Source: a virus
Taxonomy: Duplodnaviria; Caudoviricetes
Strand: one strand, 5' to 3'
Length of the DNA stretch: 64,000 nucleotides
IMG/VR virus record: IMGVR_UViG_3300019742_000001
Of this stretch, positions 3,337 through 11,914 are shown one piece after another (within the stretch, counting starts at the first letter, position 1; each line of letters opens with the position of its first letter). The notes beneath the pieces are model-generated. The model did not search any database. It saw only the letters and a program-made list of their open reading frames with translations, and was not told the origin of the DNA. The translations under genes were made by a program, and so were the position numbers.

Positions 3337-3408
3337 TGGTATCGGTAGAAGGAATTGAACCTTCCATCTGTCCGTATGAAGGACGGATTCGTAACCATAC
3401 ATACCGAT
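3337..3408 (-). tRNA. tRNA(CAT), Met/Ile2, atypical D and anticodon arms
   Basis: Acceptor ATCGGTA/TACCGAT, T arm GAAGG-TTCAATT-CCTTC, loop ttCATac on a 4-bp stem, CCA. Confidence 0.6.
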
Positions 3409-3415
3409 ACAAAAG

Positions 3416-3486
3416 TGGAAGCGGAGGAAGGAATCGAACCTTCAAGTAAGTGGTTATGAGCCACCACGATACCCTGAATCCCCGCA
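3416..3486 (-). tRNA. trnM: tRNA-Met(CAT), initiator-like (1:72 mismatch)
   Basis: Loop ctCATaa, U1:U72 mismatch, CCA. Confidence 0.75.
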
Positions 3487-4839: not shown

Positions 4840-4871
4840 TAAGGGTGGGTCTGAGATTACGACCCACCTTT
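4840..4871. terminator. GC-rich hairpin, possible terminator or processing stem
   Basis: AAGGGTGGGTC...GACCCACCTTT inverted repeat. Confidence 0.45.
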
Positions 4872-5147
4872 GTTAGAACTTTCGTTAGATTATCCGTAGG
4901 GGGCAACCCTTTGGTTCCTAACTTATCCACACATCATTCCAATGTGTATTCCAACGTGACTACCTTTTTTAAAGAGTGGTTTTTCTCTTGTCCTGTAAGT
5001 CTATTCAATACTTTGTCTACCCTAGTGAGTAATTAATTCCCTAAGTGCGACTCCCTATCAACACTCTCCAACTTGCGGTCTTTGAGTGCCCCAATTCACA
5101 ATACATGTTGGGGATTAAGCCACTTTCAACTTACAGCGGGGCCAACT

Positions 5148-5228
5148 TTGCGTTTACAATATTGGAATTGAACCAATAAATGTCAGATTAGAATTCTGAT
5201 TGACAACCTTTGTCAGATTGAACTATCC
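5148..5228 (-). pseudogene. degenerate tRNA-Arg(TCT)-like element
   Basis: T arm ATTGG-TTCAATT-CCAAT and TCAGA-atTCTaa-TCTGA present; acceptor stem and CCA poor. Confidence 0.45.
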
Positions 5229-5230
5229 AT

Positions 5231-5697
5231 GATGTGTGACCCCTGTGGATTCATAACCTTGCGATTACAAAATACCACACACCATATATCTTTCCCTTTT
5301 GTATCGGTACTCAATGGTTTTTCAAGATTTTGTCTGCCTCCTCACAAAGACACCCAATACCTATCAAACTACGAACCGCCCTTGACACTACTCTCAGACT
5401 ATGTTCATTATCCCTTATCTTTCATAAATGGAATGTTTGGTATGTAGTATTTCGGTACCACCCGAAACTCGTTTAGACCAGTGTTACCCACCTAAACTTT
5501 TTCCTACACATCCGTCATTACTTATGTCCACCTACTACAGTGAACACCCTTTACGGGAAGATGAGACTTGTTTGGTTATCCATTCGAAAATGGCGGGGAA
5601 GTGATAGAACTTACCCCTTTCGTTACGTTTCCGTAATTTATTTGTTGACACCAAACTGCCAATTTTATATTTTCAAAGATCGTTCTGTTTCAATGTT
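5231..5697 (-). ncRNA. large structured ncRNA, GOLLD/ROOL class candidate
   Basis: ~470 nt without a credible ORF, purine-rich on the minus strand, own promoter, inside a tRNA cluster; 3' part GGTGTGTGGTATTTTGT..CAAGG..ATGAATCCAC..CACATC resembles GOLLD-class 3' domains from memory. Confidence 0.55.
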
Positions 5698-5752: not shown

Positions 5753-5828
5753 TGGTGCGGGTAGTAGGGTTTGAACCTACGACGTACGATTTAAAAGACC
5801 GTTACTCTACCAACTGAGTTATACCCGC
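5753..5828 (-). tRNA. trnK: tRNA-Lys(TTT) copy 1
   Basis: ACGGT-ctTTTaa-ATCGT, CCA. Confidence 0.9.
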
Positions 5829-5839
5829 TCAGTTTTTAA

Positions 5840-5916
5840 TGGTAGGGATGACAGGAATCGAACCTGCATTGTACGAGTTAAAAGCCCGTTGTAAAACCAA
5901 TTTTTACTACATCCCC
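5840..5916 (-). tRNA. trnK: tRNA-Lys(TTT) copy 2
   Basis: ACGGG-ctTTTaa-CTCGT, CCA. Confidence 0.88.
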
Positions 5917-7498: not shown

Positions 7499-7574
7499 TG
7501 GTGGATCTCCACGGACTTGAACCGTGATAATACGTCTTATGAGGACGCTGCTCTACCAATTGAGCTAAAGATCC
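7499..7574 (-). tRNA. tRNA(CAT), elongator Met or Ile2
   Basis: GCGTC-ctCATaa-GACGT, canonical cloverleaf, CCA. Confidence 0.9.
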
Positions 7575-7578
7575 AAAA

Positions 7579-7655
7579 TGGTGTCCCCGATAGGATTCGA
7601 ACCTATGACTAATAGCTTAGAAGGCTACTGCTCTATTCCGCTGAGCTACGGAGAC
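7579..7655 (-). tRNA. trnR: tRNA-Arg(TCT)
   Basis: GTAGC-ctTCTaa-GCTAT, CCA. Confidence 0.95.
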
Positions 7656-7663
7656 ATGTAACT

Positions 7664-7768
7664 TGTAATATCACTTTAACGAATGCTTCACCATATTTGC
7701 CCCACCGACAGTCAAGCCGAGGAGGGAATCGAACCCTCTTTCTTTCGTCTTGCAAAAGTGATATTACA
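7664..7768 (-). ncRNA. YrlA-like Y RNA (permuted tRNA mimic)
   Basis: 14-bp terminal helix; GACGAAAG fits GNCGAAN(0-1)G; order is T arm, closed acceptor-like stem, then D-like loop. Confidence 0.7.
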
Positions 7769-7774
7769 TAAATT

Positions 7775-7851
7775 TGGTCAGGAGTATCGGGTACGATCCG
7801 ATATACACAGAGTCACAATCTATGCGATTAACCATTTATCTTAACTCCTGA
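7775..7851 (-). tRNA. trnH: tRNA-His(GTG), U-1:A73 type
   Basis: ATAGA-ttGTGac-TCTGT; T loop ATCGTAC; CCA. Confidence 0.85.
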
Positions 7852-7859
7852 TGATTTGT

Positions 7860-7948
7860 AATACTCAGTGAGGGAATTGAACCCTCATCTCTCCGTCGAG
7901 GTAGTGATCTAATCCGTCTAGGGATATCCGTTTGATCTAACTGAGTAT
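7860..7948 (-). ncRNA. tRNA-like RNA with expanded D loop
   Basis: ACTCAGT/ACTGAGT acceptor, T arm TGAGGG-TTCAATT-CCCTCA, no clear anticodon, no CCA. Confidence 0.5.
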
Positions 7949-9504: not shown

Positions 9505-9583
9505 TGGAGCGGATATGGTGAATCGAACACCTTGCGATGGGTTGGAAACCCACTGTCACACCATGTAACTGAGCGATACCCGC
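9505..9583 (-). tRNA. trnG: tRNA-Gly(TCC)
   Basis: GTGGG-ttTCCaa-CCCAT, GCGGGTA acceptor, U73, CCA. Confidence 0.85.
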
Positions 9584-9949: not shown

Positions 9950-9986
9950 TGGCAGGGATAGTAGGGATCGAACCCACATCCAAACC
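9950..9986 (-). pseudogene. 3' half remnant of a tRNA-Trp-type gene
   Basis: T arm GTGGG-TTCGATC-CCTAC plus TATCCCT-G-CCA only; abuts the HNH stop codon. Confidence 0.7.
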
Positions 9987-10974: not shown

Positions 10975-11309
10975 ATTTTCTTTAATTTAGTGGAACAAGG
11001 AGTGTATGCCCTGATTTACTATCCACGTCCTGTGTGGATATCCACTAAAAGGTTTGGTAACCGCACCGTATCCCTTAGACTTGTCGAGGTAGTCGCCGTG
11101 ATTGGTTACCCGTAAATTCTGGTTAATCGGGATTCCATTTCCATCAGCGACCAAGCCAATTTACTACGGTATCCTTTTCACCACGGTCACATAACAATCA
11201 ACTGGTTAGGAATATGCCTCTGTGACCTAAACTTGTCACGGTTTTCGCCTCTCAGGACGGGTCTACATCAAATTAATGATCACCGTGAACCCTCTTTCTT
11301 TCGTATTAA

Positions 11310-11842: not shown

Positions 11843-11914
11843 TGGAGGGTATGGAGGGAATTGAACCCTCGTTCATCGTTTTGCAGACGATACACCGAAC
11901 CATCGAACATACCC
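11843..11914 (-). tRNA. trnC: tRNA-Cys(GCA)
   Basis: ATCGT-ctGCAaa-ACGAT, U73, CCA. Confidence 0.9.

What the first reader, a model, noticed from the sequence alone, without database searches (positions are those of the whole stretch)
7664..7768. YrlA-like Y RNA / circularly permuted tRNA-Cys mimic
Seen on the minus strand: TGTAATATCACTTT | TGCAAG | ACGAA | AGAAA | T arm GAGGG-TTCGATT-CCCTC | imperfect acceptor-like stem closed by a loop | D-like GC-AAATATGGTGAA-GC | A | TTCGT | T | AAAGTGATATTACA. The T arm comes before the D arm, the ends form a perfect 14-bp helix, and GACGAAAG fits the YrlA GNCGAAN(0-1)G motif. Joining the two halves would give an exact Cys anticodon arm (TTCGT-ttGCAag-ACGAA). 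Known: YrlA RNAs are Ro60/Rsr-binding tRNA mimics found in some phages; permuted tRNAs are known from algae and archaea. No Ro60 or RtcB gene is in this window.
Basis: partly seen in the sequence, partly recalled or inferred. Interest (0 to 1): 0.78.

Follow-up and report, generated by a model that had tools for sequence, protein, structure and literature searches.

The report
Permuted tRNA-Cys mimic in phage
Among the tRNA genes of a 239-kb uncultured T4-like phage sits a 105-base gene for a back-to-front cysteine tRNA with a sealed acceptor end and an anticodon loop split open and clamped by a perfect 14-bp helix; it is built like bacterial YrlA "Y RNAs" but fails that family's tests, and it has been found in this one phage only.

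Summary
The RNA lies 6 and 8 nt from tRNA-His and tRNA-Arg inside a tRNA operon. When its inner 77 nt are circularised, ARAGORN calls a 74-nt tRNA-Cys(GCA), but only at 95% of its default threshold. The break falls exactly between loop nucleotides 32 and 33. The acceptor is closed by a 3-nt linker and pairs at only 5 of 7 positions.

The layout (T arm, closed acceptor, D arm, terminal helix) is that of YrlA, but membership fails:
- Rfam YrlA gives 14 bits against a cut-off of 69, less than it gives ordinary tRNA-tRNA junctions here.
- No TROVE/Ro60 gene was found in about 149 kb of the contig.
- The GNCGAANG motif is common by chance and sits in a different place.

The phage does encode RtcB and RlaP.

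The element is absent from the closest relatives and identical in four DNA metagenomes, and no RNA data exist, so conservation and expression are untested.

My best reading (0.45) is a stable, non-decoding tRNA-Cys mimic acting as a protein decoy or scaffold. A rearrangement relic (0.30) is the main rival.

This scan has reported YrlA-like permuted tRNA modules in other phages. I found one more (L114).

The parts
7755..7768 (-). 5' arm of the terminal helix (RNA nt 1-14, UGUAAUAUCACUUU)
   Evidence: Perfect 14-bp complement of 7664-7677. Pair probabilities are 0.95-1.0, except 0.54 for the outermost pair.
7749..7754 (-). UGCAAG (RNA nt 15-20): tRNA loop positions 33-38 with the Cys anticodon GCA. 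UGCAA is predicted as a 5-nt bulge, and G20 pairs with U91.
7744..7748 (-). ACGAA (RNA nt 21-25): 3' strand of the anticodon-type stem. With G20 and A26-G27 it spells GACGAAAG.
   Evidence: Perfect 5 bp with UUCGU. The motif is frequent by chance.
7739..7743 (-). AGAAA: 5-nt variable-loop equivalent
   Evidence: ARAGORN layout.
7722..7738 (-). T arm GAGGG-UUCGAUU-CCCUC
   Evidence: An orphan canonical T arm outside every called tRNA. It matches the tmRNA and tRNA T arm in cmscan. Pair probabilities are 0.97-0.99.
7703..7721 (-). Closed acceptor-like hairpin (RNA nt 48-66): 5 pairs including 2 G-U, mismatches at the 1:72 and 7:66 equivalents, U at the discriminator position, and a GAC linker where CCA would be
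   Evidence: Thermodynamically weak.
7684..7702 (-). D-arm-like region (RNA nt 67-85): a 2-bp GC/GC stem and a 12-nt loop carrying a GG doublet
   Evidence: The same ...AUGGUGAAGC D-arm sequence is common in phage tRNAs.
7678..7683 (-). UUCGU + U (RNA nt 86-91): 5' strand of the anticodon-type stem plus loop position 32
7664..7677 (-). 3' arm of the terminal helix (RNA nt 92-105)
7775..7850 (-). Upstream tRNA-His with encoded CCA, 6 nt before the element
7579..7655 (-). Downstream tRNA-Arg(UCU), 8 nt after the element. RNase P cutting at its 5' end would set the element's 3' boundary (inference).
11843..11914 (-). The phage's ordinary tRNA-Cys(GCA). Its 3' half is 29/34 identical to the element's 5' part.
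11287..11304 (-). Exact 18-nt second copy of ACGAAAGAAAGAGGGUUC (element nt 21-38), lying 5 nt after tRNA-Pro

Best explanation
The element is a gene for a small, stable, non-decoding tRNA mimic derived from a tRNA-Cys.

It is transcribed as part of the minus-strand tRNA operon. It is freed by the enzymes that mature its neighbours: 3' trimming of tRNA-His and RNase P cutting at tRNA-Arg. These steps are inferred from position.

The 14-bp helix joins its two ends and should protect them from exonucleases. That helix stacks on the former anticodon stem to form a handle of about 20 bp, with UGCAA, which includes the anticodon GCA, bulged out.

The T arm, the closed acceptor hairpin and the D-like loop would form a tRNA-like elbow. 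This is inferred; only the T arm is robust.

It has no free CCA end, and a helix projects from the anticodon loop, so it cannot be charged and used for decoding in the normal way.

I propose that it works by being bound. It would be a decoy or scaffold for a protein that recognises tRNA(Cys) or the tRNA elbow, for example a host anticodon nuclease or a component of tRNA repair. It would not need a phage Ro60. The partner is unknown.
For: - The anatomy is exact. It is one 74-nt tRNA equivalent plus a 3-nt linker plus two 14-nt arms, with both break points at the same loop position, 32|33.
- A perfect 14-bp helix is rare in this window.
- The element is spaced like a tRNA within the array. No terminator-like site lies on the minus strand between the promoter-like site at 8337-8309 and 6800.
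- Gene callers place no ORF on it.
- The 27:43 pair is U-A here and A-U in the ordinary tRNA-Cys, so the stem stayed paired.
- Other tRNA-like genes without normal decoding features sit in the same island.
- An unrelated phage lineage has the same layout with a perfect 13-bp terminal helix beside its tRNA array.
- The genome carries tRNA-repair genes: RtcB, RlaP and phosphoesterases. This fits a phage under attack on its tRNAs.
- Published YrlA work shows that closed, circularly permuted tRNA mimics are real functional RNAs (PMC4201824; bioRxiv 10.1101/312249).
Against: - There is no evidence of transcription or stability. No RNA run holds the sequence.
- The element is a singleton. It is absent from the nearest relatives' tRNA islands.
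- It is identical in all four metagenomes that carry it. No covariation test is therefore possible.
- The acceptor-like and D-like stems are weak, and an alternative hairpin is favoured by 3.2-3.7 kcal/mol.
- No partner protein has been identified.
- The island shows signs of rearrangement: an 18-nt duplicate, an orphan tRNA 3' half and HNH genes.
Confidence: 0.45

Rival explanations
1. A non-functional relic. Tandem duplication, homing-endonuclease breaks or template switching in the tRNA island left a 3' tRNA half followed by a 5' half. The perfect inverted repeat arose at the DNA level. Any RNA made is a by-product.
For: - The element is a singleton, absent from the closest relatives.
- An exact 18-nt fragment of it lies after tRNA-Pro.
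- There is an orphan tRNA 3' half at 9961-9977, and two HNH genes sit in the island.
- The acceptor and D stems are degraded.
- The ordinary junction of two adjacent tRNAs already gives T-before-D order.
Against: - Both break points fall at the same loop position, so exactly one loop of 7 nt is reconstituted.
- The break points are bracketed by a perfect 14-bp helix that is not tRNA sequence.
- Among 3272 repeat-bracketed segments, no other non-trivial case appeared.
- The spacing from neighbouring tRNAs is like that of a gene.
Confidence: 0.3
2. A true Ro60/Rsr-binding Y RNA of the YrlA kind. The stem that carries GACGAAAG next to the bulge would be the Ro-binding site, and the Ro60 would come from the host or from the unexamined part of the phage genome.
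For: - It has the T-AS-D layout with a closed acceptor and paired ends, as in YrlA (PMC4201824; 10.1101/312249).
- GNCGAANG lies on the 5' strand of a helix that ends in unpaired A-G, a local context like that in the Rfam consensus.
- The phage carries RtcB. In Salmonella, RtcB shares an operon with rsr and yrlA (PMC4201824, PMC7790460).
Against: - The Rfam YrlA score is 14 bits, below the 24-26 bits for plain tRNA junctions.
- The conserved YrlA D stem GCUC/GAGC and the CUA are absent.
- The motif is frequent by chance and also occurs in 2 of 24 normal tRNAs.
- No TROVE hit was found. I tested window ORFs of 250 aa or more. I also checked precomputed Pfam hits for genes over record positions 143-239 kb.
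- Chen et al. found their phage YrlA-related sequences in genomes that encode a TROVE protein, nearly all within 4 kb of it (PMC4201824). The Thermus phage Yrl RNAs also sit next to the phage's own Ro60 (PMC12135203).
Confidence: 0.12
3. A working permuted or split tRNA-Cys gene. The acceptor loop is opened by RNase P and 3' trimming with CCA addition. The anticodon loop is then either closed by the phage ligase (RtcB or Rnl2) after the 14-bp arms are removed, or left as a two-piece tRNA held together by the helix.
For: - The rejoined sequence is called tRNA-Cys(GCA), with U33, A37, a U discriminator and a perfect anticodon stem.
- RtcB, the RlaP nucleotidyltransferase and phosphoesterases are encoded in the same contig (PMC12776372).
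- M. smegmatis YrlA is cut by RNase P and gains CCA (PMC4201824).
Against: - The tRNA call appears only below ARAGORN's default threshold.
- The acceptor pairs at 5 of 7 positions with both end pairs mismatched, inside a 6-nt loop, and no CCA is encoded.
- The two cuts required lie directly opposite each other, which is not a bulge-helix-bulge. From general knowledge, no bacterial or phage enzyme is known to make them.
- A normal tRNA-Cys gene is already present.
Confidence: 0.06
4. An RNA-processing or structural signal in the operon transcript, for example an RNase III site. The tRNA-like interior would be incidental.
For: - The handle is about 20 bp, interrupted by a bulge.
- From memory, not checked here: T4 species 1 RNA is an RNase III substrate in vitro.
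Against: - The neighbouring tRNAs need no such signal; other spacers in the array are 3-10 nt.
- This reading does not explain why the helix brackets exactly one permuted tRNA.
Confidence: 0.07

Closest known systems
YrlA (Y RNA-like A; Rfam RF02553; Chen et al. 2014, PMC4201824; Wang et al. 2018, bioRxiv 10.1101/312249)
   Same: - The order is T arm, loop-closed acceptor stem, D arm, with the 5' and 3' ends paired into a stem that replaces the anticodon arm.
- The authors themselves describe most YrlAs as circularly permuted tRNAs with closed acceptor stems.
- A GNCGAANG string is present.
- Both are linked with genomes that carry RtcB.
   Different: - The covariance model gives no match (14 bits against 69).
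- No Ro60 is nearby or in about 62% of the genome.
- The D stem has 2 bp instead of the conserved GCUC/GAGC, and there is no CUA.
- The motif lies in the inner stem, not the terminal helix.
- This element keeps a complete 7-nt anticodon loop with GCA, split at 32|33. YrlA has none.
Circularly permuted tRNA genes of Cyanidioschyzon merolae and other algae and archaea; split tRNA genes of Nanoarchaeum equitans (from general knowledge; PMC3400036 reviews the ligases)
   Same: - The 3' half lies upstream of the 5' half in one unit.
- The break is in the anticodon loop.
- Complementary flanks bring the two ends together.
- An RtcB-type ligase is encoded by the same genome.
   Different: - Those systems use a bulge-helix-bulge motif and the archaeal/eukaryal splicing endonuclease, and they yield standard tRNAs with 7-bp acceptors.
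- Here there is no bulge-helix-bulge, the host is bacterial, the acceptor is poor, and a normal tRNA-Cys already exists.
Phage T4 stable RNAs, species 1 and 2 (rnaC, rnaD), at the end of the T4 tRNA cluster
   Same: They are small RNAs of unknown function encoded directly after tRNA genes in a T4-type phage. rnaC carries a canonical T arm.
   Different: They are not permuted. The T arm of rnaC lies at the 3' end beside an open acceptor-like end, with a large insert in place of the D and anticodon arms. My models gave no match to them; the only hit in the T4 tRNA locus was a tRNA-tRNA junction.
Unnamed element in IMG/VR contigs 3300042868_013845, 3300012663_001378 and 3300042549_010698 (L114 5540-5630, L077 4845-4935, L207 1359-1449)
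   Same: - It has the same T-AS-D layout, a 2-bp D stem, a 4-5-nt variable region starting AGA, and a perfect 13-bp terminal helix.
- It lies beside a tRNA array.
- No TROVE was found in the two records I searched.
   Different: - It has no anticodon-loop remnant; the helix runs straight into the core.
- It appears to have its own promoter-like and T-rich flanks.
- It scores only 24 bits against the single-sequence model, so homology is unproven.

Membership tests
YrlA (Rfam RF02553) | Scores at or above the family's gathering score (69 bits) with the Rfam covariance model | tested here: not met
   The score is 14.2 bits, E = 4.4, in the wrong register. There is no hit when the element is searched alone. 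The model gives 25.6 and 23.8 bits to ordinary tRNA-tRNA junctions in the same island.
YrlA (Rfam RF02553) | Encoded within about 4 kb of a Ro60/Rsr (TROVE) gene on the same strand | tested here: not met
   The neighbours are tRNAs, small ORFs and HNH genes. No TROVE hit was found in window ORFs of 250 aa or more. None appeared in the precomputed Pfam hits over record positions 143-239 kb. About 80 kb, the virion-gene side of the genome, was not examined.
YrlA (Rfam RF02553) | GNCGAAN0-1G motif near the 5' end, in the helix formed by the two ends | tested here: inconclusive
   GACGAAAG is present at RNA nt 20-27, but in the inner stem, 14 bp and a bulge away from the 5' end. The motif occurs in 2.3% of random 105-nt windows and in 2 of 24 normal tRNAs here.
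YrlA (Rfam RF02553) | tRNA-like domain in the order V, T arm, closed acceptor stem-loop, D arm | tested here: met
   The T arm is robust. The acceptor-like and D-like stems are weak.
YrlA (Rfam RF02553) | Near-invariant D-stem and T-stem nucleotides (consensus GUAGCUCA..GGUAGAGC and GCGGGuUCGA..CCCGC) | tested here: not met
   The T loop matches. The D arm is GC-AAAUAUGGUGAA-GC, there is no U8-A9, and the T stem is GAGGG/CCCUC.
YrlA (Rfam RF02553) | Bound by Ro60/Rsr | not testable with these tools
   This needs a binding assay.
Circularly permuted tRNA gene | The 3' half lies upstream of the 5' half, and joining them gives a sequence that tRNA finders accept | tested here: inconclusive
   ARAGORN calls tRNA-Cys(GCA) on the circularised core only at 95% or less of its default threshold, and nothing at the default.
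Circularly permuted tRNA gene | Bulge-helix-bulge (or relaxed variant) at the junction, for the splicing endonuclease | tested here: not met
   There is a single 5-nt bulge on one strand only, and the two required cut sites lie directly opposite each other.
Circularly permuted tRNA gene | A 7-bp acceptor stem that can be opened to give mature 5' and CCA 3' ends | tested here: not met
   It pairs at 5 of 7 positions with mismatches at 1:72 and 7:66, a 6-nt closing loop, and GAC in place of CCA.
Circularly permuted tRNA gene | An RNA ligase able to join the ends is encoded by the same genome | tested here: met
   RtcB (430 aa, PF01139) lies at record positions 205785-207077 of the same 239,309-bp contig, about 59 kb from the element.
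Ordinary tRNA (Rfam RF00005 / ARAGORN) | Recognised as a linear cloverleaf | tested here: not met
   It was not called by ARAGORN. It was not hit by RF00005 at the gathering or E-value thresholds.

The most novel reading that the evidence does not exclude
This is the first permuted or split tRNA gene of a bacterial virus. The transcript would be opened at the acceptor loop. Its anticodon loop would be sealed by the phage's own RtcB-based repair enzymes, or it would act as a two-piece tRNA-Cys. That would give the phage a tRNA-Cys that exists only when its repair pathway is active, or one that a host anticodon nuclease cannot inactivate.
Probability: 0.05. Interest if true: 0.9.

Novelty: new variant of a known kind. 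Interest (0 to 1): 0.5.

Why it matters
Closed, circularly permuted tRNA mimics are known as YrlA partners of Ro60. This one still carries every nucleotide of a Cys anticodon loop. That makes it look like an early stage in turning a tRNA gene into such a mimic, so it bears on how Y-type RNAs originate.

It also lies in a phage without a detectable Ro60 but with RtcB and RlaP. If the RNA is made, it would point to a Ro-independent use of tRNA mimicry during infection. Possible uses are a decoy against tRNA-cutting defences or a part of tRNA repair.

The claim is limited. There is one lineage, no expression data and no conservation data.

Tried and rejected
- **blastn against INPHARED phages.** I searched with the element and with its 1.8-kb surroundings. 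Only T-arm or tRNA matches came back.
- **Exact 28-mer in IMG/VR.** No hit.
- **Relatives fetched through a 244-aa neighbour and through ThyX**, in IMG/VR and in metagenomes. The closest relatives (84% ThyX identity) have the tRNA island but not the element.
- **Single-sequence and two-sequence covariance models** over about 1.7 Mb of phage loci. Only the L114-type element is a credible look-alike. All other hits are junctions of neighbouring tRNAs.
- **Two degenerate pattern scans of IMG/VR** (T loop followed by a D loop). These returned mostly adjacent tRNAs.
- **A scan for permuted tRNAs**, taking repeat-bracketed segments, circularising them and running ARAGORN. Three apparent cases (Val, Asp, Gln) proved to be chimeras of adjacent normal tRNAs.
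- **Reads laid from four DNA metagenomes.** There are no variants in the element, so no population-level covariation.
- **RNA runs.** None hold the sequence.
- **A second copy of the 14-mer arm elsewhere in the window**, as a transposon-like repeat would have. None beyond chance.
- **The 535-aa and 527-aa unknown proteins as hidden Ro60.** The first matches a virion structural protein family. The second groups only with viral hypothetical proteins; its one named structural match is beta-helix, and nothing is Ro60-like.
- **TROVE and RtcB in the relative's 164-kb contig.** Neither is present, which is uninformative because that relative lacks the element.
- **T4 rnaC and rnaD as a model.** They have a different architecture.
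- **Whole-genome search tools.** Unavailable for this record.

Full report
**Setting.** The window comes from a 239,309-bp contig of an uncultured T4-like phage from microbial mats. About 10 kb of the minus strand is a tRNA island. ARAGORN tRNAs there, Rfam finds a GOLLD RNA at 183.7 bits, and several tRNA-like genes escape ARAGORN. No whole genome was available to the genome tools.

The RNA starts 6 nt after the CCA of tRNA-His and ends 8 nt before tRNA-Arg(UCU). It therefore sits in the array like one more tRNA gene. No terminator-like site lies on the minus strand between a promoter-like site at 8337-8309 and 6800. Gene callers placed no ORF on it.

Folding gives -34.3 kcal/mol with z = -3.6. 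Three elements have pair probabilities above 0.9: the 14-bp terminal helix, a 6-bp stem (GACGAA with UUCGUU) and the T stem. UGCAA is predicted as a 5-nt bulge between the two helices.

The 14-bp perfect repeat is one of only five inverted repeats with a 12-nt or longer seed within 150 nt in 64 kb. Two of the others are hairpins with 5-7-nt loops and one is a palindrome. The arm sequence has no further copies beyond chance.

**It is a circularly permuted tRNA-Cys look-alike.** ARAGORN finds nothing in the linear element or in rejoined versions at its default threshold. At 95% of that threshold it calls the circularised inner 77 nt a 74-nt tRNA-Cys(GCA). Its features are:
- anticodon stem UUCGU/ACGAA, which is perfect;
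- loop UUGCAAG, with U33 and A37;
- a 5-nt variable loop;
- a canonical T arm;
- a D stem of 2 bp, with a GG doublet in the loop;
- an acceptor paired at 5 of 7 positions, with mismatches at both ends;
- U at the discriminator position.

Only three nucleotides (GAC) are left over as a linker where CCA would be. The element is thus one tRNA equivalent, a 3-nt linker and two 14-nt arms. Both break points lie between loop positions 32 and 33.

As a control I applied the same circularisation test to 3272 repeat-bracketed segments from 1.67 Mb of window and phage loci. It gave only normal tRNAs and three chimeras of adjacent tRNAs, whose flanks continue as ordinary tRNA sequence. The element's flanks do not.

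**Origin.** The 5' part of the element, from the anticodon to the end of the T arm, is 29/34 identical to the 3' half of the phage's own tRNA-Cys at 11843-11914. The 27:43 pair is U-A in the element and A-U in that gene. The acceptor and D-arm part resembles the GUCGG...GCAAAUGGUGAAGC 5' halves of tRNA-Tyr genes in other phage contigs.

An exact 18-nt copy of element nt 21-38 lies 5 nt after tRNA-Pro at 11287-11304. The island also holds an orphan tRNA 3' half and two HNH genes. So the island has been rearranged, and both halves of the element derive from tRNAs.

**Is it a YrlA?** In design, yes. Chen et al. (PMC4201824) and Wang et al. (10.1101/312249) describe YrlA as T arm, closed acceptor, D arm and paired ends, "resembling circularly permuted tRNAs". 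In membership, no:
- The Rfam model gives 14.2 bits in the wrong register (cut-off 69).
- It gives nothing when the element is searched alone.
- It gives 24-26 bits to plain tRNA-tRNA junctions in the same island.

The consensus printed shows the GNCGAANG motif in the terminal helix. A 7-bp stem, CUA and a 4-bp stem follow, with a canonical GCUC/GAGC D arm. Here the motif is in the stem that touches the core, and the D stem has two pairs. The motif occurs in 2.3% of random 105-nt windows of this strand and in 2 of 24 normal tRNAs.

**Ro60 and ligases.** No TROVE hit was found in window ORFs of 250 aa or more. PHROGs and the protein atlas gave no sign of Ro60 in the unnamed large proteins.

I then walked along the source contig with exact-protein look-ups, from record position 143 kb to about 239 kb. 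The precomputed Pfam hits include no TROVE. With the window, about 149 of 239 kb are covered. The unseen 80 kb is the virion-gene side, according to earlier unverified notes of this scan.

The walk did confirm an earlier unverified note:
- RtcB (430 aa) lies about 59 kb from the element.
- An RlaP nucleotidyltransferase is present. That family adds nucleotides to damaged tRNA 3' ends (PMC12776372).
- There are several phosphoesterases and a DHH protein.

Jumbo phages often carry such tRNA-repair sets, and only a few also carry TROVE (PMC7824862).

**Conservation and expression.** The exact 28-mer is absent from IMG/VR. The source contig is also not among the JGI metagenome hits. The closest relatives, at 84% ThyX identity, have a 21-tRNA island with tRNA-His followed directly by tRNA-Thr. 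They have no orphan T arm apart from the one in the long tRNA-free gap, where this phage carries GOLLD.

Four mat DNA metagenomes carry the region without a single difference in the element. No RNA run holds it. Neither covariation nor transcription could therefore be tested.

One other phage lineage has the same layout (L114, L077 and L207, near-identical). It has a perfect 13-bp terminal helix and a 2-bp D stem, and it lies beside a tRNA array. No TROVE was found in the two of its records I searched, L114 and L077. This scan's earlier notes report similar modules in other phages.

**Most likely mechanism (0.45).** I read it as a stable, non-decoding tRNA-Cys mimic. It would be released from the operon transcript when its neighbours are matured. 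The terminal helix would protect its ends. It would present a tRNA-like elbow and a bulged GCA on a handle of about 20 bp, and it would act by being bound by a protein.

What the tools establish is the sequence anatomy, the predicted stability of the helices and T arm, the position in the operon, and the tRNA-repair genes. What is inferred is the processing, the L-shape, the stability in cells and the existence of a partner.

**Rivals.**
- Relic of rearrangement (0.30). It fits the singleton status and the signs of rearrangement, but it does not explain the matched break points or the perfect non-tRNA clamp.
- True Ro60-bound Y RNA (0.12).
- Working permuted or two-piece tRNA-Cys using RtcB (0.06).
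- Processing signal such as an RNase III site (0.07).

**Verdict.** The element is a new variant of the known closed, permuted tRNA-mimic design. Its complete split anticodon loop and its Ro60-poor, RtcB-bearing phage context make it interesting. It is unproven as a functional RNA.

Noticed in passing
window 7862-7946 (-): A tRNA-like gene missed by ARAGORN (RF00005, 37.7 bits in a local search). It has a 7-bp acceptor and a T arm identical to that of tRNA-Cys. The D loop carries an 18-nt insert containing a GGAU/AUCC hairpin. A 3-bp mini-hairpin replaces the anticodon arm, and no CCA is encoded.
   Followed up: partly
window 3340-3408 and 3419-3486 (-): Two small tRNA-like genes just downstream of thyX, with GAAGG/CCUUC T arms and much reduced D arms (RF00005, 31.6 and 21.4 bits). 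One has a CAU anticodon loop. Neither is called by ARAGORN.
   Followed up: partly
window 10975-11309 (-): About 310 nt between tRNA-Pro and tRNA-Asp with only a 55-aa TTG-start ORF. It begins with the exact 18-nt copy of part of the element, which is flanked by a CATTAAT direct repeat. Folding gives z = -1.9, and there is no Rfam hit at E <= 0.5.
   Followed up: partly
window 9508-9583 (-): A further tRNA candidate at 28.9 bits (RF00005 cut-off 29) that is not in the ARAGORN list.
   Followed up: no
window 7515-7634 and 5773-5892 (-): The Rfam YrlA model scores 25.6 and 23.8 bits on ordinary junctions of two adjacent tRNAs. Sub-threshold YrlA hits in tRNA arrays are therefore not evidence of a Y RNA.
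   Followed up: yes
L114 5540-5630 (-), L077 4845-4935 (+), L207 1359-1449 (+): Another phage lineage carries a 91-nt RNA with T arm, closed acceptor hairpin, a 2-bp D stem and a perfect 13-bp terminal helix. It lies near the start of its tRNA array and has promoter-like TGGTAAGAT motifs nearby. No TROVE was found in the two records I searched.
   Followed up: partly
source contig ena:ERZ27248004:k141_198771, positions about 193,000-222,000 (L218-L220): A dispersed RNA-repair gene set: cREC_REC next to a Metallophos protein, RtcB directly upstream of the PncB-Nudix-NadE-PncA operon, a second Metallophos, RlaP and a DHH protein. There is also a P-loop kinase-like protein near 184,000-185,000.
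   Followed up: partly
window 4847-5285 (-): A GOLLD RNA (RF02032, 183.7 bits) with an embedded tRNA-like element at 5154-5222. It lies in the same tRNA island.
   Followed up: no
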